Source of the DNA: Clostridia bacterium
GTDB taxonomy: Bacteria; Bacillota; Clostridia; Christensenellales; Borkfalkiaceae
Reading direction: 5' to 3'
DNA: 64,000 nucleotides
Assembly (NCBI GenBank): GCA_017473605.1
Contig: JAFUKM010000008.1
Span: 26,881-90,880 of the forward strand
Below the pieces are notes generated by a model. It was given only the letters and a program-made list of their open reading frames with translations, was not told where the DNA came from and did no database searches. The first letter of the stretch is position 1, and the number at the start of each line of letters is the position of its first letter. The position numbers and the translations under genes are program-made. Below, piece after piece: positions 5,655-63,708 of this stretch.

Positions 5655-5984
5655 CTCCTGAAAATAAAAAGCCCGAAGGACGGATTTCTCCGTGCTTCGG
5701 GACGATATTTCTACCGCGGTGCCACCCAAAATTGACTTTGTTCAAGTCCGCTTATTTGCGTACCATCATACGCATTGCGCTGTTACGGGCGCTGCCCGTC
5801 GATTGCTACTGGCAAAATTTCTTTCGCGTTCGTTCGCCCTCATAAGCCCATTCCTTGCCGTTCGCCGTATTGCATTTCACCAATCGCAACTCTCTTTGCC
5901 GTTCGAATTCGGAAGTACTACTCTTATTCATCGGTTTATCTATGAAATTGTTTATATCTTACCACTTTTTTTTTGCGCCGTCAA
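5655..5984 (-). promoter_or_regulatory. T-box leader (Trp specifier UGG) with promoter and terminator
   Basis: On the minus strand: TTGACG-17-TAAGAT (5984-5956). AGAGA/GGTGAAA stem I elements. GGAA-UGG-G specifier (UGG = 5850-5848). T-box core AATTTTGGGTGGCACCGCGG (5733-5711). Terminator hairpin 5702-5671 plus a U-run. Confidence 0.85.
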
Positions 5985-11507: not shown

Positions 11508-11552
11508 AAAGTGAAGTTTCGGCTACACCGAAATGCGGAAAACTTCACTTAT
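11508..11552. repeat. inverted pair of the AACTTCACT family unit
   Basis: AGTGAAGTT (11510-11518) and AACTTCACT (11541-11549) can pair as a hairpin. The terminal ...CTTCACTTATAAAGG matches the ends of the other elements. Confidence 0.6.
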
Positions 11553-24392: not shown

Positions 24393-25811
24393 ATGATGAA
24401 GAAAAACGATAGCGTTTGCGCCGTAGTAGAAGGCGTCGGTTCAAACGGGGAAGGTATTATCAGGCACGAAGGGGTTACTTTTTTCGTGCCTTACTCTTTG
24501 CCCTCGGAACGGGTACGTTTTAAGGTGCTGAAAATCAAAGGGAATATCGGTTACGGAAAGGTAGAAGAAGTGCTTACTCCCGCAATGTGCCGTGTACAAC
24601 CGCAATGTGAAGTATTTGAAAAGTGCGGCGGTTGTTGTTTGCAGCATTTGAAATATGAAGAACAGCTCGTACATAAGGGCAACGTGGTAAAAGACGCGCT
24701 TCGGAAAATTGGCGGGTTGAACGTAGAAGTGCCTTGTGCCGTCGCGAGCGATTTTCCGTATGGGTATAGGAATAAATTGCAGCTTCCTATCGGCGTGGAT
24801 AAAGACGGAAATAACGTTATCGGTTTTTATGCCGAACGCTCGCATAGAATTATTCCCGTGGATAGTTGTGAGATTCATCCAAAGTGGGCGGAAACGCTGA
24901 TTGCGACATTGAAACGGTATATGGCGGAAACGGGCGTGAGCGGCTACGACGAAGAGAGAAAGACGGGCGTTTTAAGACATATCGTTGCAAGAGAAATTGG
25001 CGGTAAATTTATCTTCACGCTCGTGTGTGCAAAACGCAAAGTAAAAGGCGTAGAACGTTTGATAACGATGTTGCAAGAAAATTTTGCGGATTTCACGCTG
25101 TATCTCAATTTTAACGACAAGGATACGAACGTGATTTTCGGAAAAGAATTTTCGCTTGTTTACGGCGACGGATTTTTTGAGGCGGAAGAACAAGGCATAC
25201 GCTATGAGGCGGGACCCGTTACCTTTTTGCAGGTCAATGAAAACGTACGAGAAAAACTGTATCAAGCGGCACTTAAAACGGTGGTGGAAACGGGAGACGA
25301 AGTGGTGGTTGACGCGTATTCGGGAGGCGGATTGTTGACGGCGATGATTGCCAAGAAGTCCAAAAGAGTTTACGGCATCGAGCTGGAACAAGAAGCAAGC
25401 GACTGCGCCGATAAATTAAAGGCGAAAAACGGCTTGACGAATATGACGAATATTTGCGGCTACGTAGAAGAGAGATTGCCGTTCGTTTTGAACAGAGAAA
25501 AGAGCGAAAAATTGCGTTTGATACTCGACCCGCCCAGGGCAGGTATCGCGCGAAGCGTACTGAAAGCACTGCTTCAAAGCGGAATTCCGCGTTTAACGAT
25601 TATCAGCTGCAATCCCGCTACGCTCGCAAGGGATTTGGGGGTATTGACGGGTAGTTTAAAGGAAAACGAGAAAGGGGAGCTAATAAAAAACCCCGTTTAT
25701 ACGGAAAACGGGTTAGACGGTTATTATCAAATTGAGCGTATTCAGCCGTATGATATGTTCCCCCAGACCAAACACGTGGAGACGCTCGTGTGCCTTGTGC
25801 GCAAGGCGTAA
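24393..25811 (+). CDS. 23S rRNA (uracil-C5)-methyltransferase, RumA/RlmD(CD) family
   Basis: TRAM N-terminus, Fe-S cysteines (C..CGGCCLQH), SAM fold, DPPRAG. C-terminal YDMFPQTKHVETLVCL. Confidence 0.9.
   Translation: MMKKNDSVCAVVEGVGSNGEGIIRHEGVTFFVPYSLPSERVRFKVLKIKGNIGYGKVEEVLTPAMCRVQPQCEVFEKCGGCCLQHLKYEEQLVHKGNVVKDALRKIGGLNVEVPCAVASDFPYGYRNKLQLPIGVDKDGNNVIGFYAERSHRIIPVDSCEIHPKWAETLIATLKRYMAETGVSGYDEERKTGVLRHIVAREIGGKFIFTLVCAKRKVKGVERLITMLQENFADFTLYLNFNDKDTNVIFGKEFSLVYGDGFFEAEEQGIRYEAGPVTFLQVNENVREKLYQAALKTVVETGDEVVVDAYSGGGLLTAMIAKKSKRVYGIELEQEASDCADKLKAKNGLTNMTNICGYVEERLPFVLNREKSEKLRLILDPPRAGIARSVLKALLQSGIPRLTIISCNPATLARDLGVLTGSLKENEKGELIKNPVYTENGLDGYYQIERIQPYDMFPQTKHVETLVCLVRKA
25753..25786 (+). 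repeat. direct repeat copy 1 (inside the rumA-family 3' end)
   Basis: ATATGTTCCCCCAGACCAAACACGTGGAGACGCT, identical to 25969-26002. Confidence 0.95.
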
Positions 25812-25968
25812 GAAAAAATTACAAAACGCCTACGCCGTGCGTTGGCATACGTGCGGGGGGGCGGTTTTGAAATTTTTAATACGTTGTGGAACAACGAAAA
25901 CGGGGGAGTCAAGTGTTTGAAGTCCGCCGTCGGCGCAAGACGAACATACATTTTCTTGCAAAGAAGAT

Positions 25969-26039
25969 ATATGTTCCCCCAGACCAAACACGTGGAGACG
26001 CTTGTAGTACTTGGCGTAAGCAAATATAAAAAAAGATGA
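25969..26039 (+). pseudogene. orphan duplicate of a rumA-family 3' end (direct repeat copy 2 + alternative C-terminal codons)
   Basis: 34/34-nt identity to 25753-25786. It encodes ..YMFPQTKHVETLVVLGVSKYKKR* with no upstream methyltransferase body. Confidence 0.6.
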
Positions 26040-37633: not shown

Positions 37634-37750
37634 ACGGAGAAGTTTTTGCCCTGTCCGTGTCATTGCGAACGAAGTGAGGCAATCTTGTGAAATATACTTG
37701 TAATGACAAGGATAACGAAAGATAGAAAGATTTGGTGGCGGCTCGCCGCA
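37634..37750 (-). repeat. degenerate, inverted copy of the modular repeat (left module + 2 decayed units)
   Basis: The reverse complement reads GCGGCGAGCCGCCAC-CAAATCTTTCTATCTTTC..., as at 48353-48388. The hairpin ends 1 nt before the AAGGAG of the next gene. Confidence 0.75.
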
Positions 37751-38830: not shown

Positions 38831-39235
38831 ATGTCGAAAGATACGAATACACTCAAAGAAGAAGCCAGAAAAGCGAAATCGCGATTGAAAAAAGGTTTTT
38901 GGACGGATTGTAAAGAAAGTATGGACGAACGACTTGAAAAAGCGCGCGCTTTGGGCGTCAACGAGAGCAAAGCGGGACGGTATTTCGCCGAGCAAGTCAC
39001 CAAACAAATTTCGGGCGAAAAGGAAGACGGTTTTTATCTTCGGGTGAAGGAAATGCTGCTTTCGGACGGGGAAGTGAGCGACGCCATCGGACGGCTTACG
39101 GACAAGCCCTATTTCGACACGCTTTCCTATGAAGAGAAACAGCGGTATACCCTTTCTTTAAGCGAGCGCTATCTTCGCGCGTTGGAGCGTTTTAGAAGAG
39201 AGTGCGAATTTGAGAGCGTAGACAAAAAGGCGTAA
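38831..39235 (+). CDS. hypothetical protein (134 aa, charged, helical)
   Basis: ATG 38831 follows GGGGAGGGG. No recognisable domain. Confidence 0.55.
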   Translation: MSKDTNTLKEEARKAKSRLKKGFWTDCKESMDERLEKARALGVNESKAGRYFAEQVTKQISGEKEDGFYLRVKEMLLSDGEVSDAIGRLTDKPYFDTLSYEEKQRYTLSLSERYLRALERFRRECEFESVDKKA

Positions 39236-39345
39236 AAAAGTGAAGTTTGCTTCGCAAGTGAAGTTACTGCGTAGTGAAGTTTTGACTTTGTCAAAGTGAA
39301 GTTTTTTTGCGTAAACGCAAAAAAGTTGTGGCTAAAAAGACAACG
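39236..39345 (-). repeat. inverted AACTTCACT/hairpin array (4 exact units)
   Basis: AGTGAAGTT at 39239, 39257, 39273 and 39295. T7-GCGTAAACGC-A6 hairpin, then GTTGTGGCTA (compare the reverse complement of 50835-50842). Confidence 0.85.
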
Positions 39346-39433
39346 TGATTAGCGTTTTGGAGAGATTTTTATTGGATAATTGGAAAAACTCGATTTTTAT
39401 AAGTTGAGTTTTCTTTTATTTATGAAAAAGTGA

Positions 39434-39462
39434 TTGAAAAAATCAAAAAAGTGTGGTATACT
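39434..39462 (+). promoter_or_regulatory. sigma-A type promoter with extended -10, driving the candidate RNA
   Basis: TTGAAA, 17-nt spacer, TGG-TATACT. The predicted start is about 39469, which is the first base of stem P1. Confidence 0.6.
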
Positions 39463-39468
39463 GTAAAT

Positions 39469-39660
39469 GGCATACAATTTAATAATTTTTAGATGAGTAG
39501 ACAAAGGGAATATTATCCCCTTTTTATTGTCATACTCCCATTATGCGATTTGTTAAAAATGCAAATTCCAAATGGGAGTGTTTACTCATTTCTATTAAAT
39601 TGTATGCCAACAACGGAGTTTGCGTTTTTGGTGCGTTAACTTCGGTTGGCGCACTTTTTT
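39469..39660 (+). ncRNA. candidate structured RNA (about 190 nt), family not recognised
   Basis: P1 is a perfect 16 bp (39469-84 / 39593-608). P2 is 11 bp (39493-503 / 39579-89). There is a GGG/CCC hairpin (about 39503-22). P4 is 9 bp (39534-42 / 39571-79). The terminator is a 10-bp stem with a UUCG loop (39631-54) plus T6. Confidence 0.5.
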
Positions 39661-39697
39661 ATTGGCAAAATAAATATTGAGAAAAGGAGAAGAAAAT

Positions 39698-39850
39698 ATG
39701 TGTTTTTTGCGTAGAAAAAGACAAAAACAAGCGGAGATGGAAGAAGCTTTTCACGATTGGATTGAAGAACAAGACAGAGAAGAAAAAGAACGCGTATGGA
39801 AAAAGATACAGGAGAAAGAAAGAGAACGGCAAAAGGATAAAGAAAAGTAA
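39698..39850 (+). CDS. small highly charged protein (50 aa)
   Basis: AAAAGGAGAAG lies 7 nt before ATG 39698. MCFLRRKRQKQAEMEE...KERERQKDKEK*. Its own terminator follows. Confidence 0.4.
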   Translation: MCFLRRKRQKQAEMEEAFHDWIEEQDREEKERVWKKIQEKERERQKDKEK

Positions 39851-39874
39851 GGCGAAAACCTTACTTTTATTTTT
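39847..39874 (+). terminator. rho-independent terminator
   Basis: Stem GTAAGG / CCTTAC with loop CGAAAA, then TTTTATTTT. Confidence 0.65.
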
Positions 39875-39905
39875 GGGAAACGGGGCGTTGAATTTACGAA
39901 TATAC

Positions 39906-39934
39906 TTGCAAAAAAACGGGGGATATGCTATAAT
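39906..39934 (+). promoter_or_regulatory. sigma-A type promoter abutting the 132-aa ORF
   Basis: TTGCAA, 17-nt spacer, TATAAT. The -10 is only 9 nt from ATG 39944. Confidence 0.5.
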
Positions 39935-39946
39935 ATTTACGTTATG
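39929..39946 (+). repeat. 18-nt direct repeat, copy 1
   Basis: TATAATATTTACGTTATG, identical to 40381-40398. Confidence 0.95.
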
Positions 39947-40342
39947 AAACTCGTTGGCGTAAAGAAAAACATAATAGAAAAACTAAACGGCGTCAAAGTG
40001 GAAGAAGATGATTTATATAAATACGTTCAATCTCCTAATTGGATGAAAAATGCTACTCCAACGGAGATATTGTATTTTTTTACTGAATTAGAGCTTCCAA
40101 AATCTTGTTATGATAGCGTATATACTATTCCCCATGAAACAAAAAAGGAAATGTTATTTGATGAAAGTGTTTATTACCTGAAAAAGATTTTGATTTTTTT
40201 GGGCACGGAAGATGGGTTCCACGCAGATTATATATGTCCAGCATTTCCTGTTGATTTATCGTTGGAAGAACAACATGATATTATCACTAAATTATTGAAT
40301 AAAGAACAAAACGAAAGCTATGAAAAAAAGCGAAATGGATAA
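39944..40342 (+). CDS. hypothetical protein (132 aa) in an AT-rich insert
   Basis: Clean ORF with AT-rich codon usage unlike its neighbours. Its ATG belongs to the duplicated 18-mer. No recognisable domain. Confidence 0.5.
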   Translation: MKLVGVKKNIIEKLNGVKVEEDDLYKYVQSPNWMKNATPTEILYFFTELELPKSCYDSVYTIPHETKKEMLFDESVYYLKKILIFLGTEDGFHADYICPAFPVDLSLEEQHDIITKLLNKEQNESYEKKRNG

Positions 40343-40380
40343 TCGTTGTTTAACGGACTTATTCATTGCGAAAAATAAGG

Positions 40381-48092: not shown

Positions 48093-48314
48093 ATGATTAA
48101 CGAACCTTCTGTAGACGTAATGATTAGAAAGCTGGGAACGGAAGAAGAACCCATTAGCCGTTACGCGCTTTGCACGGTTGCGGCGAAACGCGCGCGCCAA
48201 ATCATCGAAACGGAAAAGAACGCAGGTATTACCGATTCGATGGGAAAGGACAAAGAATTGCTTTCCGCTTGCAAGGATATTGCGGACGGTAAAGTGGTTA
48301 TCGCAAAAGACTAA
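48093..48314 (+). CDS. rpoZ: DNA-directed RNA polymerase subunit omega
   Basis: SRYALCTVAAKRARQI. 73 aa. Syntenic after gmk. Confidence 0.9.
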   Translation: MINEPSVDVMIRKLGTEEEPISRYALCTVAAKRARQIIETEKNAGITDSMGKDKELLSACKDIADGKVVIAKD

Positions 48315-48315
48315 C

Positions 48316-48350
48316 AAAAAATTGCCCTGCTTGCGTAGGGCAATTTTTTA
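48316..48350 (+). terminator. rho-independent terminator
   Basis: Stem ATTGCCCT / AGGGCAAT followed by TTTTT. Confidence 0.8.
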
Positions 48351-48552
48351 GTGCGGCGAGCCGCCGCTCCCAAATCTTTCTATCTTTCCACAACGCTTAT
48401 AAGTAGCGTTATCGTGAATAAATAGAAATATAAGCCTTAACTTTTTGTTCGCTTGCGGACAAAAAACTTCACTTTCCGCCTCGCGGAAAACTTCACTTGA
48501 TTTATCAAACTTCACTTTTGCCCAAAGGGCAAAAACTTCACTTCATTAAGAG
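48351..48552 (+). repeat. full-length modular repeat element (archetype)
   Basis: Hairpin 48353-67, core 48370-88, hairpin 48442-65, and AACTTCACT at 48465, 48489, 48508 and 48534. It ends 12 nt before the priA ATG. Confidence 0.9.
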
Positions 48553-48563
48553 GTAAAAAACGT

Positions 48564-50738
48564 ATGATAGCGGAAGTCATCGTCGATATCGCGGCGAGTG
48601 AAACGGACAGAATATTCGATTATCTCTGCGACGAAGATACCGTCGTCGGCAGCCGCGTCCGCGCGCCCTTTGGCGGTAAAACCGTTACGGGCTTCGTTAT
48701 GCGCTTAAAGGAAACTTCCGATTATCCGATAGAGAAATTGAAAAAAATACTGCCCACCAGCGACGAATTGCCTGCGCTCAATAAAGAGTGCTTGGCTCTT
48801 GCAGAAAAGCTGACGGTGCGCTACCGCGTACCCAAAGCGCTTACGCTCCGATTGTTTTTGCCAACGGAAATGCGTACGGGTAAGGTTAGACAGCTACTTC
48901 GGAATTATGCCGAACTTACGGTGGCGCTTGCGGAAATGAAGCTTTCCAAAACGGCGAAAAACCAAACGGGCGCGGCGGAATATTTGGCGCAACACGGCAA
49001 GAGCGATTGCGCATATCTCAACGGTATTTACCCGGGCGGCGTAAGCGGCTTGGAAAAGAAAGGGTACGTCCGTATCACGCAGGAACAAATCTTGCGCGAC
49101 CCGTATAAAAGCGTGGAAGGGGCGCACGTAAAACGTACGCTGACGGACGAGCAGGAACGTGCGGTGCAAACGATTCGCACGGATAAGCGGACGGTACAGC
49201 TTTTGCACGGCGTTACGGGCAGCGGAAAAACGGAAATTTATTTGACCTTGATTGCCGAGTGTCTGCAAAAGGGACAAGGCTCGATTTTTCTTGTTCCCGA
49301 AATTTCGTTGACACCGCAAATGCTCTCTCAGCTTCGCGCAAGGTTCGGCAAAAACGCGGCGATATTGCATAGCGGACTTTCCGCAGGGGAAAGATTCGAC
49401 GAGTGGTGGCGGCTGCGCACGGGTGAAGCGAAAATTGCCATCGGGGCAAGAAGCGCGATTTTCGCGCCGATGGAAAATCTCGGCGTGATTATCATCGACG
49501 AAGAACACGATTCGAGTTATTCGAGCGAATCCGCGCCAAGATACAACACCTTTGACGTGGCGCTGCTTCGCGCGAAGAAAAACGGTTGTAAATTGGTTTT
49601 GGGTAGCGCGACGCCGTCGGTAGAAACGTATAAAAAGGCGAAAGACGGGGAAATTTCTTTAATCCGTTTGGAAAAGCGTATCAACCGCCGCCCGTTGCCC
49701 GAAATCATTATTTCGGATATGCGCCGAGAAGTGCGTCGGGGGAATAATTCTTCCTTTTCCACAGCGCTTAAAGAAGAGATAGAAAAATGCCTTGCAACCG
49801 ACAAACAGGCGATTTTGTTCTTGAACCGCAGGGGGTATTCCCAAACGGTTATTTGTAAAGAGTGCGGTTTCGTGGCGAAATGCGAGCATTGCGACGTGTC
49901 GCTTACCTATCATAGGGACGAAGATACGCTCAAATGCCATTATTGCGGTATGCGCTATTCCATGCTTTCCGCTTGTCCCGATTGCGGCGGGAAGAAGCTC
50001 ACTTACGCTGGCACGGGGACGCAAAGGATAGTGGCGGAACTGCAAAAGTTATACCCGTCGGCGCGTATTTTGCGTATGGATAACGACACGACGAGCGGTA
50101 AAGAAGGGCATTATAAAATCTTAAAGGCGTTTGCCGAGAAAAAGGCGGATATCCTTGTAGGCACGCAAATGATAGCAAAGGGGCACGATTTCCCGTCCGT
50201 TACGCTTGTGGGGATTTTGGACGCAGATATGAGCTTGCATTTCTCCGATTACAGAAGCGGTGAAAGAACCTTTCAACTTTTGACGCAGGTGGCGGGCAGA
50301 AGCGGTAGAGCGGAAGAAAAGGGGAAAGTGGTATTGCAAACGTTCGACCCCGAAAACGAAGTGTTGCGCTATGCAACGTCGTACGATTACGAAGGGTTTT
50401 ACAAAAACGAAATATCCCTTCGCGCGGCGATGATGTTTCCGCCCTTTTCCAAAATCGTTCGGGTTTTGGTGACGGGCGAAGACGATAAAAAGACGTTGGA
50501 AGCGCTAAAAGAAGCGTACTTCGCTTTGGAGAAGTTATATACGGAAAATCCTGAAAAGTTCTTATTTTTCAATAAAATGCGTTCCCCGATAAAACGGATA
50601 CAAAACAAGCACCGCTATCAAGTGTTGATGCGGCTTTGCGATACGGGCATATTGCCCGACGTTTATGAGATTTGCGCACAGGCAAGAACGAAAGACGTGT
50701 TGGTAAGCGTGGAGGAAAATCCCGTGAATTTGAGCTAA
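48564..50738 (+). CDS. priA: primosomal protein N' (replication restart helicase PriA)
   Basis: GVTGSGKTE, DEEHD and four CxxC zinc-binding pairs. Confidence 0.95.
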   Translation: MIAEVIVDIAASETDRIFDYLCDEDTVVGSRVRAPFGGKTVTGFVMRLKETSDYPIEKLKKILPTSDELPALNKECLALAEKLTVRYRVPKALTLRLFLPTEMRTGKVRQLLRNYAELTVALAEMKLSKTAKNQTGAAEYLAQHGKSDCAYLNGIYPGGVSGLEKKGYVRITQEQILRDPYKSVEGAHVKRTLTDEQERAVQTIRTDKRTVQLLHGVTGSGKTEIYLTLIAECLQKGQGSIFLVPEISLTPQMLSQLRARFGKNAAILHSGLSAGERFDEWWRLRTGEAKIAIGARSAIFAPMENLGVIIIDEEHDSSYSSESAPRYNTFDVALLRAKKNGCKLVLGSATPSVETYKKAKDGEISLIRLEKRINRRPLPEIIISDMRREVRRGNNSSFSTALKEEIEKCLATDKQAILFLNRRGYSQTVICKECGFVAKCEHCDVSLTYHRDEDTLKCHYCGMRYSMLSACPDCGGKKLTYAGTGTQRIVAELQKLYPSARILRMDNDTTSGKEGHYKILKAFAEKKADILVGTQMIAKGHDFPSVTLVGILDADMSLHFSDYRSGERTFQLLTQVAGRSGRAEEKGKVVLQTFDPENEVLRYATSYDYEGFYKNEISLRAAMMFPPFSKIVRVLVTGEDDKKTLEALKEAYFALEKLYTENPEKFLFFNKMRSPIKRIQNKHRYQVLMRLCDTGILPDVYEICAQARTKDVLVSVEENPVNLS

Positions 50739-50935
50739 ATTTTTACGCTATGCGTAAAAGTGAAGTAGGTCTAACGAAAAGTGGAGTTTTTTGTCCGTTT
50801 CTCGGACAAAAAGTTATTGCAAATATAAATAATAGCCACAACTGCAACCAAAGGTTGCAACTTCACTTTAACGTGGTTAAAACTTCACTGCGAAGCAACT
50901 TCACTACGCTGTGGGCGTAACTTCACATATATAAA
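50739..50935. repeat. composite head-to-head pair of repeat elements
   Basis: Left arm inverted (AGTGAAGTa 50759, AGTGgAGTT 50780, hairpin 50787-50815). Right arm forward (AACTTCACT 50859, 50881, 50897; AACTTCACa 50919). Confidence 0.85.
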
Positions 50936-55348: not shown

Positions 55349-55390
55349 GCACCCCAAAAGTTAGACAAACTTTTGGGGTGCACTTCACTT
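55349..55390 (+). repeat. solo hairpin + cACTTCACTT unit after rpe
   Basis: 12-bp stem GCACCCCAAAAG / CTTTTGGGGTGC followed by ACTTCACTT instead of a U-tract. Confidence 0.5.
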
Positions 55391-62613: not shown

Positions 62614-62805
62614 TGCGGTGGTGGCAAGCTGCCACTTCCAAGTCTTTCTATCTTTCACTATCGCTTATGCTTAGCTATATCGTTGACAAATATAAATATA
62701 AGCCGCAACTTTTTGTCCGTTTTACGGACAAAAACTTCACTTCGGCGTAGCCGAAACTTCACTGCGCAGTAACTTCACTTTGGCATAGCCAAAACTTCAC
62801 TATAA
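62614..62805 (+). repeat. second full-length modular repeat element
   Basis: Hairpin GTGGCAAGCTGCCAC (62621-35). Core TTCCAAGTCTTTCTATCTTTC (62636-56). ...AAATATAAGCCGCAAC. Hairpin 62711-34. AACTTCACT at 62733, 62755, 62771 and 62793. Confidence 0.9.
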
Positions 62806-62937: not shown

Positions 62938-63708
62938 ATGGCGAGAAAAATCGTGGTGACGAGCGGCAAAGGGGGAGTGGGAAAGACGACGGTGGCGGCT
63001 TCGCTTTCCGCCTATCTTGCCCGTAAAGGGCAAAGAGTCGTACTTTGCGACGCTGATTTGGGTTTAAATAATATCGACGTGGCGACGGGAGTGGAAAGTT
63101 TGATAACCTACGATATTGTGGACGTAATCGAAGGCAGGTGTCGCGCGGTGCAAGCGCTTGTCCAACACCCTGATTTTCCCAATTTGTACGTGCTTACAAG
63201 CAGTCACTCCGCGCCCGAGCGGTACGTATCGCCGCAGGCGTTTAAGCTGGTACTCGATACGCTTGCGCCCAAGTTCGATTTTATCTTTATCGATTGTCCC
63301 GCAGGGATAGAGGACGGGTTTCATAGAGCGGTAGCTTCGGCAAACGAAGCGATGGTAATCACCACGCCGCAGGTTTCCGCTATCCGCGACGCGGACAAAG
63401 TGATAACGCTTTTGAAAAGTTACGATTTTTCCGCGATTTCTTTATTGGTGAACCGTGTGCGCGGGGATTTGCTGTTTTCGGGGGATTGTCTTATGCCGCA
63501 AGAGATAGAAAAGCTTTTGAAAACGCCGCTTATCGGCGTGATTCCCGAAGAATACTCGGTGGCGACGGGCGCGTTGTCCGATATACATACCGCGGTGAAA
63601 ACGGTGGGGAACAACCTGCTTACGGGCAAGAAAAAACTATACGATACGACGCGGAAATACGCGGGGTTTTTCGGCGGTTTGCGGCGTATGTTGAAAAGGA
63701 ATTTGTAA
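62938..63708 (+). CDS. minD: septum site-determining ATPase MinD
   Basis: Deviant Walker A SGKGGVGKTT. C-terminal amphipathic tail GFFGGLRRMLKRNL. Confidence 0.93.
   Translation: MARKIVVTSGKGGVGKTTVAASLSAYLARKGQRVVLCDADLGLNNIDVATGVESLITYDIVDVIEGRCRAVQALVQHPDFPNLYVLTSSHSAPERYVSPQAFKLVLDTLAPKFDFIFIDCPAGIEDGFHRAVASANEAMVITTPQVSAIRDADKVITLLKSYDFSAISLLVNRVRGDLLFSGDCLMPQEIEKLLKTPLIGVIPEEYSVATGALSDIHTAVKTVGNNLLTGKKKLYDTTRKYAGFFGGLRRMLKRNL

What the first reader, a model, noticed from the sequence alone, without database searches (positions are those of the whole stretch)
48351..48552. Archetype of a dispersed modular intergenic repeat: GC hairpin + CAAATCTTTCTATCTTTC core + 4x AACTTCACT/hairpin array (rpoZ|priA spacer)
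The whole rpoZ-priA spacer is one composite element. It starts with hairpin GCGGCGAGCCGCCGC (48353-67) and core CCAAATCTTTCTATCTTTC (48370-88). A variable stretch with its own hairpin (AACGCT-TATAAGT-AGCGTT) follows and ends in AAATATAAGCC. Next is a T5...A5 hairpin (48442-65). Then AACTTCACT occurs at 48465, 48489, 48508 and 48534, and two of the spacers between copies are themselves palindromes (CCGCCTCGCGG, TTGCCCAAAGGGCAA). The same architecture recurs complete at 62614-62805. It recurs partial or inverted at 37634-37750, 39236-39345, 50739-50935, 11508-11552 and 55349-55390. I count at least 17 exact copies of the 9-mer, all intergenic. About 0.5 copies are expected for a given 9-mer on both strands of 64 kb (2 x 64000 / 4^9, equal base frequencies). 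Hairpins differ in sequence between copies but keep their pairing (GCGGC/GCCGC vs GTGGCA/TGCCAC; GTTCGCTTGCGGAC vs GTCCGTTTTACGGAC), so structure is conserved rather than sequence. No transposase lies nearby. The units are too short for CRISPR. The modular build recalls BOX/REP-type elements, but I do not recognise this sequence as a described family. The motif lies in single-stranded gaps between hairpins. That layout would also suit a protein-titrating RNA or an iteron-like protein-binding array.
Basis: seen in the sequence. Interest (0 to 1): 0.78.

Follow-up and report, generated by a model that had tools for sequence, protein, structure and literature searches.

The report
Orphan Gut-1-like heptamer–hairpin repeat array
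The rpoZ–priA spacer holds a gene-less copy of a repeat (a short motif alternating with small hairpins) that normally sits next to genes for a small ring-forming protein of unknown function, and that protein's sequence changes in step with the motif, so it probably binds it.

Summary
AACTTCACT occurs 17 times (0.27 expected), in arrays of four separated by hairpins whose sequences differ but whose pairing is kept. It is not an undescribed family. Read on the other strand, the array has the architecture of Rfam Gut-1 (RF01706, function unknown). The best window copy scores 31 bits against a threshold of 50; fuller copies in other gut Clostridia pass it.

Complete elements have two inverted arms: about 3-4 RTGAWWT units, a centre, then about 4 units of the reverse complement. 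They lie directly upstream of genes for S23p/IVP proteins (PF05635, Avd-like four-helix bundle, pentameric in crystals): 26 of 39 non-redundant genes versus 1 of 273 control windows.

The motif differs between protein clades. Its last base tracks one N-terminal residue perfectly: C with Ser (24/24), T with Asn (11/11), over about six independent switches.

The window has no IVP gene. Relatives have short, empty spacers at the same sites. I therefore read the window arrays as orphan, gained-and-lost copies of IVP binding arrays. Whether RNA, ssDNA or duplex DNA is bound, and how copies spread, remains open.

The parts
48353..48367 (+). GC hairpin GCGGCGAGCCGCCGC at the left edge of the inserted segment. 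It is part of the lineage-specific 'core' module.
   Evidence: Sequence and fold. Copies with compensatory changes lie at 62621-62635 and 37738-37750(-).
48370..48388 (+). 19-nt core CCAAATCTTTCTATCTTTC. Function unknown.
   Evidence: 3 copies in the window. Among the 126 loci held at that point, found only in the window's own contig (L121) and in relative L125 (4 copies). A related palindromic form lies in the centre of the L099 element.
48391..48409 (+). Variable hairpin AACGCT-TATAAGT-AGCGTT.
48426..48442 (+). AT-rich stretch plus half-centre AGCCTTAACT (AAATATAAGCCTTAACT). It corresponds to the right half of the element centre, AGTTATTGC-[AT-rich]-AGCCACAACT.
   Evidence: Same motif at 50813-50844, 62692-62710 and 39320-39331(-), and in L006, L073 and L094.
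48442..48542 (+). Right arm: four AACTTCACT units (48465, 48489, 48508, 48534) alternating with four hairpins (48442-48465, 48474-48488, 48498-48507, 48517-48533). It ends 21 nt before the priA ATG at 48564.
   Evidence: Four gene-proximal units is the modal number in front of IVP genes.
62621..62801 (+). Second copy with the same build: hairpin, core (1 mismatch), half-centre, then 4 units spaced 22/16/22.
50739..50927 (+). Two-armed copy in the priA-def spacer. It has a degenerate left arm (AGTGAAGTA, AGTGGAGTT), the centre AGTTATTGC-aaatataaataat-AGCCACAACT, and a right arm of 3 exact units plus one one-mismatch unit. It ends 20 nt before the def ATG.
39239..39331 (-). Half-centre plus a right arm of 4 units, directly after the stop codon of the + strand gene that ends at 39235, in antisense orientation. 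On the + strand it aligns to the whole Gut-1 model.
   Evidence: Gut-1, 31.1 bits, model positions 1-77 of 77.
37634..37750 (-). Decayed copy between the desulfoferrodoxin and flavin reductase genes: GC hairpin, exact core, then degenerate units.
11510..11549 (.). Minimal two-armed copy: AGTGAAGTT, a hairpin, then AACTTCACT. It ends 15 nt before the ATG of a LysR-type regulator gene.

Best explanation
The rpoZ-priA spacer carries an orphan (gene-less, one-armed) copy of a family of k-mer/hairpin array elements. The complete form has this order:
- a left arm of about 3-4 RTGAWWT-type units, each followed by a small hairpin (this arm is Rfam Gut-1);
- a centre;
- a right arm of about 4 units of the reverse-complement k-mer with hairpins;
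- usually, an S23p/IVP gene (PF05635, an Avd-like four-helix bundle that is pentameric in crystals).

I infer that the 7-9-nt motifs are the base-specific docking sites of the cognate IVP oligomer, one motif per subunit. The hairpins would act as foldable spacers that bring the motifs side by side when the nucleic acid is single-stranded. RNA is the most likely bound form; ssDNA is possible.

Gene-less copies such as those in this window were gained in this lineage at sites that are empty in relatives. They would bind IVP made elsewhere in the genome, so they could put neighbouring genes (priA, def) under its influence.

Shown:
- the architecture;
- the link to Gut-1;
- the association with IVP genes;
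- the k-mer/residue covariation;
- the empty sites in relatives.

Inferred:
- actual binding;
- the bound form (RNA, ssDNA or duplex DNA);
- that this genome has the cognate IVP gene;
- how copies spread.
For: Gut-1 link:
- Gut-1 hits reach or pass the gathering score on the AGTGAAGTT strand of canonical elements.
- They lie 150-225 nt upstream of IVP genes, on the gene's strand, in 15 of 20 loci chosen by protein similarity alone.

Association with IVP genes:
- 26 of 39 non-redundant IVP genes have a two-armed 7-mer array within 330 nt upstream. Only 1 of 273 control windows does.
- The AACTTCACT clade of IVP genes starts 15-38 nt after the last unit.
- One MAG contig carries an AACTTCACT array and, separately, a second IVP paralog with its own CATATCGA arrays.

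Covariation between protein and k-mer:
- k-mer classes follow the IVP tree.
- k-mer position 7 = C goes with Ser4 in 24 of 24 cases and with Arg7 in 22 of 24. Position 7 = T goes with Asn4 in 11 of 11, and residue 7 is then never Arg (Val in 9 of 11).
- Parsimony gives about 6 changes on a tree built without the N-terminus. Ser/Asn is the only alignment column that separates the two classes cleanly.

Protein fold:
- The IVP model (pLDDT 94.7) matches S23-family 2rld, Xcc0516 2gsc, Avd 4dwl and Avd in the DGR ribonucleoprotein 8ub7 at TM 0.8-0.9.
- 2rld has 5 chains. S23p is described as a homopentameric toroid (PMC4990558).

Heptamer arrays without hairpins:
- Contiguous heptamer arrays flank other IVP genes (L079 and the L234 group).
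- Three to four GACAGAT heptamers precede the Coxiella IVS S23p ORF.

Gain and loss:
- Empty sites: rpoZ-priA is 54-78 nt and priA-def is 10-30 nt in L122-L124, against 248 and 209 nt here.
- There is no AACTTCACT in 22 kb of five syntenic relatives.
- Relatives carry other k-mers: GTGAATT in L125 and CAATTCA in L124.
- L094 has AACTTCACT arrays in spacers that are empty in the window.
Against: - No IVP gene lies in the 64-kb window, so a cognate protein in this genome is assumed, not shown.
- Binding is inferred from covariation only.
- Arms usually have 4 units, not 5, and some have 7-8. A simple one-pentamer-per-arm picture is therefore not established.
- In the ATTTCAC and ATATCAC families a sigma-70-like promoter lies between the right arm and the IVP start codon. 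There the arrays may not be in the IVP mRNA, which favours a DNA-level role.
- Stems show almost no G-T versus A-C asymmetry (34 vs 23), which is unusual for an RNA structure.
- The metagenome loci are the 80 closest relatives of IVPs that were themselves found beside arrays, so generality across PF05635 is untested.
- The neighbour-joining tree rests on about 100 residues, so the count of six independent switches is approximate.
Confidence: 0.6

Rival explanations
1. The arrays are duplex-DNA operators, and IVP is a transcription factor. The orphan copies would form a regulon or act as decoy sites, and the hairpin potential would be incidental or act through cruciforms.
For: - In the ATTTCAC and ATATCAC families the last unit abuts or overlaps the -35 of a good sigma-70-type promoter of the IVP gene.
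- The two arms are inverted, like a symmetric operator.
- Stems are almost purely Watson-Crick on both strands.
- Arg with G and Asn with A are classic major-groove contacts (established knowledge).
Against: - Unit spacing varies from 16 to 26 bp with no helical phasing.
- The spacers are under strong selection to be palindromes with a strand-specific loop bias. On the AACTTCACT strand the main purine-N-A triloops outnumber their complements 74 to 6. A duplex reader has no use for this.
- Hairpin-spaced and contiguous heptamer arrays are interchangeable next to IVP genes. That makes sense only if the hairpins fold out.
- Orphan positions are not conserved between species, and arms face gene ends more often than gene starts (81 vs 54).
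Confidence: 0.25
2. A REP/BIME- or MITE-like mobile repeat that is moved by an unidentified transposase. IVP genes would be passengers, or sit at favoured insertion sites, and would not be the binding partner.
For: - The element is high-copy, intergenic and occurs in either orientation.
- Presence and absence differ between relatives.
- IVP genes are known to turn up in odd places, including rRNA intervening sequences and cas loci.
- A viral-labelled contig carries two copies.
Against: - No transposase or RAYT-type family recurs among 291 ORFs flanking 137 arrays. The most recurrent family is IVP itself.
- Copies within a genome differ in every hairpin, so they are not recent copies of one master.
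- The base-specific covariation with an IVP residue is not expected for a passenger gene.
- No terminal inverted repeats with target duplications were found.
Confidence: 0.15
3. A free-standing small RNA (Gut-1 as first annotated), or a 5'-leader RNA that regulates priA/def in cis, independent of IVP.
For: - Rfam classifies Gut-1 as an sRNA gene.
- The + strand folds well (z = -5.45).
- Three window arrays end 15-21 nt before a start codon.
- A covarying long-range helix closes the left arm.
Against: - The spacers of relatives are empty, and priA and def are conserved there without the element.
- Two window copies are antisense to their neighbours.
- There is no orientation preference towards gene starts.
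- No sigma-70-type promoter was found in 48250-48620.
- Left arms often start about 10 nt after an upstream terminator.
Confidence: 0.12

Closest known systems
Gut-1 RNA motif (Rfam RF01706; Weinberg et al. 2010, PMC2864571)
   Same: Both have three small hairpins separated by a conserved GUGAAAU-like motif, supported by covariation, and come from uncultured gut bacteria. Canonical AGTGAAGTT elements and the elements upstream of IVP genes score above the family threshold.
   Different: - The window arrays use AGUGAAGUU and fall below the threshold (31.1 vs 50 bits).
- Gut-1 was modelled as one arm on one strand and called an sRNA, with no gene association reported.
- Here it is half of a two-armed element tied to IVP genes and also scattered as orphan copies.
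23S rRNA intervening sequences carrying an S23p/IVP ORF (Leptospira, Coxiella, Xanthomonas; PMC4990558)
   Same: The protein family is the same. In both, the ORF is bounded by inverted repeats (here L107, L272, L200, L199 and L276), heptamer repeats lie in front of the ORF, ORF-less versions exist, and distribution is patchy and 'selfish'.
   Different: - The elements here are not in rRNA. They sit in intergenic spacers, after rlmD or after tRNA genes.
- The arms are arrays of motif plus hairpin, not a plain long stem.
- RNase III excision is untested.
REP/BIME elements with RAYT transposases (enterobacteria, Pseudomonas)
   Same: Both are short palindromic units clustered in alternating orientation, intergenic, in many copies, with family sequence specific to a lineage and a dedicated protein gene flanked by the repeats.
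   Different: - REP stems are conserved in sequence and carry a 5' GTAG. Here the stems are free to vary and the conserved part is the linear motif between them.
- The associated protein is a four-helix bundle with no known catalytic motif, not an HUH/Y1 transposase.
BOX elements of Streptococcus pneumoniae
   Same: Both are modular intergenic mosaics with a variable number of an internal module and predicted stable folds.
   Different: There is no sequence similarity. BOX modules are 45-59 nt and conserved in sequence, and no associated protein gene is known.
Ring proteins that read tandem short RNA repeats (TRAP with 11 GAG/UAG triplets; HutP with 3+3 UAG)
   Same: This is the mechanism I propose: a homo-oligomeric ring with one short motif per subunit and repeats at regular intervals.
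   Different: The fold is unrelated. TRAP and HutP repeats are separated by 2-4 nt linkers rather than hairpins, and they are single regulatory sites, not dispersed repeats. This is analogy only.
Avd of diversity-generating retroelements (PDB 4dwl; DGR ribonucleoprotein 8ub7)
   Same: The fold is the same (TM about 0.8), a pentamer that sits in an RNA-protein complex.
   Different: Sequence identity is 11-13%. No reverse transcriptase or template/variable repeats lie next to the IVP genes examined.

Membership tests
Gut-1 RNA (RF01706) | Score at or above the Rfam gathering threshold (50 bits) | tested here: not met
   No Gut-1 hit in the whole-window scans. The best window copy, 39238-39307(+), scores 31.1 bits with E = 8.4e-5 in a 131-nt search. 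Related elements in other genomes score 50.6-88.8 bits.
Gut-1 RNA (RF01706) | Three hairpins separated and flanked by four copies of a conserved GUGAAAU-like motif | tested here: met
   The window copy aligns to all 77 model positions. There are four AGTGAAGTT/AACTTCACT units with three or four hairpins at four window loci.
S23p/IVP-associated element (23S IVS-like) | Contains or directly adjoins an S23p/IVP (PF05635) ORF | tested here: not met
   tblastn with four IVPs finds nothing in the window. The window copies are orphans. The feature is met for the same k-mer family in L001, L030, L035, L084, L097, L107, L119, L199, L200 and L279-L281.
S23p/IVP-associated element (23S IVS-like) | Inverted repeats at the two ends that can pair | tested here: inconclusive
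   Two inverted arms are present at 50739-50927 and 11510-11549. The copy under review (48351-48552) has one arm only.
S23p/IVP-associated element (23S IVS-like) | Inserted in 23S rRNA helix 25/45 and excised by RNase III | tested here: not met
   Location: the elements lie in intergenic spacers between protein genes, and no rRNA was found in the window. RNase III cleavage cannot be tested with these tools.
REP/BIME | Imperfect palindrome of 20-40 nt conserved in sequence, with a conserved 5' tetranucleotide | tested here: not met
   There are 220 distinct stem sequences and only the linear 9-mer is conserved.
REP/BIME | Cognate RAYT (Y1/HUH transposase) gene flanked by the repeats | tested here: inconclusive
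   No such family recurs among 291 ORFs next to arrays. Whole genomes could not be searched.
CRISPR | Repeats of 23-50 nt, unique spacers of similar length, and cas genes | tested here: not met
   The repeat is 9 nt and the spacers are 7-17 nt and palindromic. No cas genes were identified among the ORFs that were checked against Pfam.
MITE | Terminal inverted repeats plus a target-site duplication at filled versus empty sites | tested here: inconclusive
   Filled and empty sites were found. However, the relatives are only about 82% identical in DNA, so exact junctions and duplications cannot be read.

The most novel reading that the evidence does not exclude
S23p/IVP proteins would be programmable, base-specific readers of tandem heptamers, with Ser4/Arg7 reading a C:G pair and Asn4/Val7 a T:A pair at one motif position. 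Together with their motif-hairpin arrays they would form a previously unrecognised kind of self-propagating genetic element. This would explain both the orphan Gut-1 'RNA' and the 30-year-old orphan ORF of rRNA intervening sequences. Its scattered gene-less arrays would place essential host genes such as priA and def under the control of the element's protein.
Probability: 0.4. Interest if true: 0.85.

Novelty: new variant of a known kind. Interest (0 to 1): 0.74.

Why it matters
- Gut-1 has been a named RNA motif with no function since 2010.
- S23p/IVP has been a solved but function-less protein family since the 1990s, and it is the closest relative of the DGR accessory protein Avd.
- The evidence here ties the two together and gives a concrete experiment: a ring protein reading tandem heptamers, with a one-residue/one-base specificity rule that can be swapped.
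- The motif can be very abundant in some uncultured gut Clostridia: about one element per 10 kb in this window. It is inserted next to essential genes, so it may affect gene expression and it breaks assemblies.
- If the proposed binding is wrong, the result is still a corrected description of Gut-1 as half of a two-armed, gene-linked, dispersed repeat.

Tried and rejected
- tRNA/tmRNA scan: nothing found.
- Rfam at gathering threshold on the window: only a T-box leader. The whole-window E-value scan gave no Gut-1 hit; only a narrow search revealed it.
- BLAST of a canonical element against plasmid and phage collections: no match.
- Viral-contig scan: mostly chance two-copy hits or coding tandem repeats. 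One contig (L147) carries two real elements.
- Literature search for the 9-mer, Gut-1, PF05635, TIGR02436 and S23p: nothing links arrays to IVP genes.
- 5'-leader or regulon idea: rejected on orientation statistics and on empty sites in relatives.
- Promoter inside the rpoZ-priA element: none found by the consensus scan.
- Strand assignment from G-T versus A-C mismatches: uninformative (34 vs 23).
- Strand assignment from loops: units have purine-N-A triloops on the AACTTCACT strand. Because the two arms are inverted, both strands of a full element look alike.
- ssDNA mini-hairpin idea (GCGAAGC-type loops): considered, neither confirmed nor excluded.
- Recombination-site, replication-origin or partition-site readings of the AT-rich centre: no recombinase, Rep or Par partner was seen next to the elements. 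The ParA-like gene at 62938 follows one copy only.
- Looking for IVP downstream of the window's rlmD-like gene, its usual home in other Clostridia: absent. Only a duplicated gene end is there.

Full report
**1.

The sequence at 48351-48552 is as described:
- a GC hairpin;
- the 19-nt core;
- a second hairpin;
- an AT-rich stretch ending in AAATATAAGCC;
- four AACTTCACT units, at 48465, 48489, 48508 and 48534, alternating with hairpins.

The 9-mer has 17 exact copies in the window, against 0.27 expected. The core has 3 copies, against 0.04 expected.

Three arrays share the spacing 22/16/22(18) while their hairpin sequences differ by compensatory changes.

Pooling the window with 120 loci from other genomes gives 220 distinct spacers:
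- 146 are perfect palindromes.
- 83% of symmetric positions are Watson-Crick, against 27.5% in shuffled spacers.
- Loops on the AACTTCACT strand are mostly C-(G/A)NA-G triloops. GAA, AAA, GCA, GTA, ATA and ACA total 74, against 6 of the complementary type.

The + strand of 48436-48552 folds into four hairpins with ACUUCAC unpaired (z = -5.45 as RNA, -5.39 as DNA).

**2. It is a variant of a named motif**

Nearly all are gut or rumen Clostridia MAGs: Christensenella-like, Oscillospiraceae, Acutalibacteraceae and Ca. Scatosoma.

Most loci there show a fuller element:
- left end AACTAAGTTTGCCC-loop-GGGCA;
- three AGTGAAGTT units with mini-hairpins;
- a centre;
- three or four AACTTCACT units with hairpins.

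When both orientations occur together, the order is almost always AGTGAAGTT units first and AACTTCACT units second: about 50 clusters against 3.

The left arm hits Rfam Gut-1 (RF01706) at 50.6-53.4 bits in four cases, against a threshold of 50. The window array at 39238-39307 aligns to the whole model but scores only 31.1 bits.

Gut-1 was published in 2010 as a candidate non-coding RNA seen only in human-gut metagenomes. No function or gene association was given. Its own seed alignment already shows the opposite arm in the flanks, and other k-mers as well, for example GUGAUAUU ... AAUAUCAC.

**3. The copies in this window were gained, and they are not tied to gene starts**

The window comes from an uncultured Clostridia metagenome scaffold. 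I compared five syntenic relatives (PriA 84-92% identical, DNA about 82% identical).

| Spacer | Window | Relatives |
|---|---|---|
| rpoZ-priA | 248 nt | 54-78 nt (L122-L126) |
| priA-def | 209 nt | 10-30 nt in L122-L124 |
| desulfoferrodoxin-flavin reductase | 130 nt | 28-70 nt in four of five relatives (442 nt in L125) |

- None of the five relatives has a single AACTTCACT in 22 kb.
- Two of them carry other k-mer families: GTGAATT in L125 and CAATTCA in L124.
- A more distant relative, L094, has AACTTCACT arrays in spacers that are empty here.
- Across 137 arrays, the next gene boundary outward from an arm is a gene end 81 times and a gene start 54 times.
- Two window copies are antisense to their neighbours.

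This rules out a conserved leader or regulon. It points to a repeat that comes and goes.

**4. The elements belong with S23p/IVP genes**

[quoted passage not shown] In each case the gene starts 15-38 nt after the last unit of the right arm, on the same strand.

One contig (L041) has both an AACTTCACT array and a second IVP paralog preceded by its own two-armed array built from TCGATATG/CATATCGA.

I then searched metagenome contigs with the protein alone:
- Of 39 non-redundant IVP genes with enough upstream sequence, 26 have a 7-mer present at least twice, with its reverse complement at least twice and five or more occurrences in total, within 330 nt upstream. Only 1 of 273 control windows does. 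Most of the 'negatives' have one-armed arrays.
- The k-mers found are GTGAAAT (classical Gut-1), GTGATAT, GTGAAGT, ATGAAAT, ATGAATT, ATGATTT and TCGATAT.
- The usual count is 3 distal plus 4 proximal units.
- Rfam Gut-1 passes its threshold 150-225 nt upstream of the gene, on the gene's strand, in 15 of 20 such loci.
- IVP genes can also sit between the arms, in either arrangement (L199, L276; L272, L107, L200).
- Some IVP genes are flanked by contiguous heptamers without hairpins (L079 and the L234 group).
- The Coxiella 23S intervening sequence has 3-4 GACAGAT heptamers before its S23p ORF (PMC4990558).

**5. Evidence that the protein reads the motif**

- k-mer classes follow the IVP tree.
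- One base tracks one residue. Elements whose proximal unit ends ...TCAC have Ser at residue 4 (24 of 24) and Arg at residue 7 (22 of 24).
- Elements ending ...TCAT have Asn at residue 4 (11 of 11). Residue 7 is then never Arg: Val in 9 of 11, Ala or Ile in the other two.
- On a tree built without the first 12 residues, parsimony needs about six changes of each character.
- Ser/Asn is the only alignment column with non-overlapping residues between the two classes.
- The switches occur inside the ATATCAC clade (L258, L266) and several times inside the ATTTCAC clade (L267, L271, L219). They are therefore not explained by shared ancestry alone.

On the protein side:
- The IVP model (pLDDT 94.7) is a four-helix bundle. 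Residues 4 and 7 sit at the N-terminal cap of helix 1.
- It superposes on S23-family 2rld, Xcc0516 2gsc, Avd 4dwl and Avd within the DGR ribonucleoprotein at TM 0.8-0.9.
- 2rld has five chains, and S23p is reported as a homopentameric toroid.

A ring protein with one motif per subunit, in the manner of TRAP or HutP, is my inference. It has not been shown.

**6. Which nucleic acid is bound**

For a single-stranded form:
- Hairpins are selected for pairing, not for sequence.
- Loop bias is strand-specific.
- Hairpin-spaced and contiguous arrays are interchangeable.
- A 9-13-bp long-range helix joins the left end to the centre in 17 of 27 elements, with at least ten different sequences.
- In the AACTTCACT clade only about 20 nt separate the array from the start codon. 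The element there follows rlmD with no terminator-like T-run after the rlmD-end hairpin (read by eye), so it is probably transcribed.

For a DNA-level role:
- In the ATTTCAC and ATATCAC families a good promoter lies between the right arm and the gene, with its -35 touching the last unit.
- Left arms often begin right after an upstream terminator.
- Stems show no G-T excess.

I lean towards RNA or ssDNA, but I regard this as open.

**7. What the rpoZ-priA element is**

It is an orphan. The order along the spacer is:
- the rpoZ terminator (48316-48349);
- a lineage-specific module (GC hairpin plus 19-mer core), also seen in relative L125 next to GTGAATT arrays in the same relative order;
- the right half of the centre;
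- a four-unit right arm ending 21 nt before the priA start.

The distance from the last unit to the start codon (21 nt for priA, 20 nt for def, 15 nt for the LysR-type gene) falls in the same range as in front of IVP genes. If IVP binds, these genes could be affected. That is speculation.

How orphan copies arise is unknown:
- No transposase was found near them.
- No target duplication could be read at this level of divergence.
- Every copy has its own hairpin sequences, so simple recent copying from one master does not fit.

**8. Limits**

- The cognate IVP gene of this genome was not seen.
- The metagenome set is biased towards close relatives of array-linked IVPs and is redundant; I counted 90%-identity clusters.
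- All functional statements rest on comparative evidence.

Noticed in passing
window 25754-26027: The last ~55 nt of the rlmD-like gene (24393..25811) are repeated about 215 nt downstream (25970-26027), enclosing about 160 nt of unrelated sequence. This looks like the scar of an integration or excision at the gene's 3' end. In other Clostridia the two-armed element plus IVP gene sits exactly after rlmD, preceded by a hairpin made from rlmD's last codons and an inverted copy of them (L030, L035, L041, L097, L119, L279-L281).
   Followed up: partly
L202, L203, L206, L213, L219, L221, L236, L239, L260, L271: In the GTGAAAT and GTGATAT families the Gut-1 element plus IVP gene lies directly downstream of one or several tRNA genes. 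This is a second preferred home in stable-RNA operons, alongside the known 23S rRNA location.
   Followed up: no
L079 7172-8000 (gene on the minus strand); L234 upstream region: An IVP (pseudo)gene is flanked by four contiguous heptamers on each side in inverted orientation: TTGAAAG TTGAAAA TGGAAAA TTGAAAA, then the gene, then TTTTCAA CTTTCCA CTTTCAA TTTTCAA. There are no hairpin spacers. The L234 group has contiguous TTCACTC x3 and AGTGAAA x3.
   Followed up: partly
window 39236-40365: About 1.1 kb is present here between the conserved 134-aa-type gene (ending at 39235) and pcrA (starting at 40366), but absent in relative L122, where the two genes overlap. It holds the antisense array, a 50-aa Lys/Glu-rich ORF (39698-39850) and a 132-aa ORF with no Pfam hit (39944-40342).
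   Followed up: no
L030 2703-3602(-), L035 1061-1960(+): The IVP gene is followed by an HTH plus T5orf172 (GIY-YIG-related) gene. In L035 a second full array element lies 2.6 kb downstream, so the genes sit between two elements.
   Followed up: partly
L147 3865-4056 and 7847-8059 (IMG/VR contig): Two complete elements lie 4 kb apart with a longer centre that carries two extra hairpins. The centres are reverse complements of each other while the arm order stays the same. This shows the centre is asymmetric and that elements insert in both orientations.
   Followed up: partly
(proteins P0121-P0240): IVPs of the AACTTCACT clade exist as very many close variants: all 120 proteins listed are 82-97% identical to the query. 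Most are on contigs shorter than 3 kb, which suggests assemblies break at the flanking repeats.
   Followed up: no
window 5695-5940 (-): A T-box leader (100.5 bits), the only Rfam family above threshold in the window.
   Followed up: no
L099 3310-3400; L125 421-469 and 9497-9545: The 19-nt core recurs as GAAAGATAGAA...TCTATCTTT (a palindrome) in the 200-nt centre of a 7+3-unit element in L099. It occurs as two direct copies around a hairpin in L125. Its role is unexplained.
   Followed up: partly
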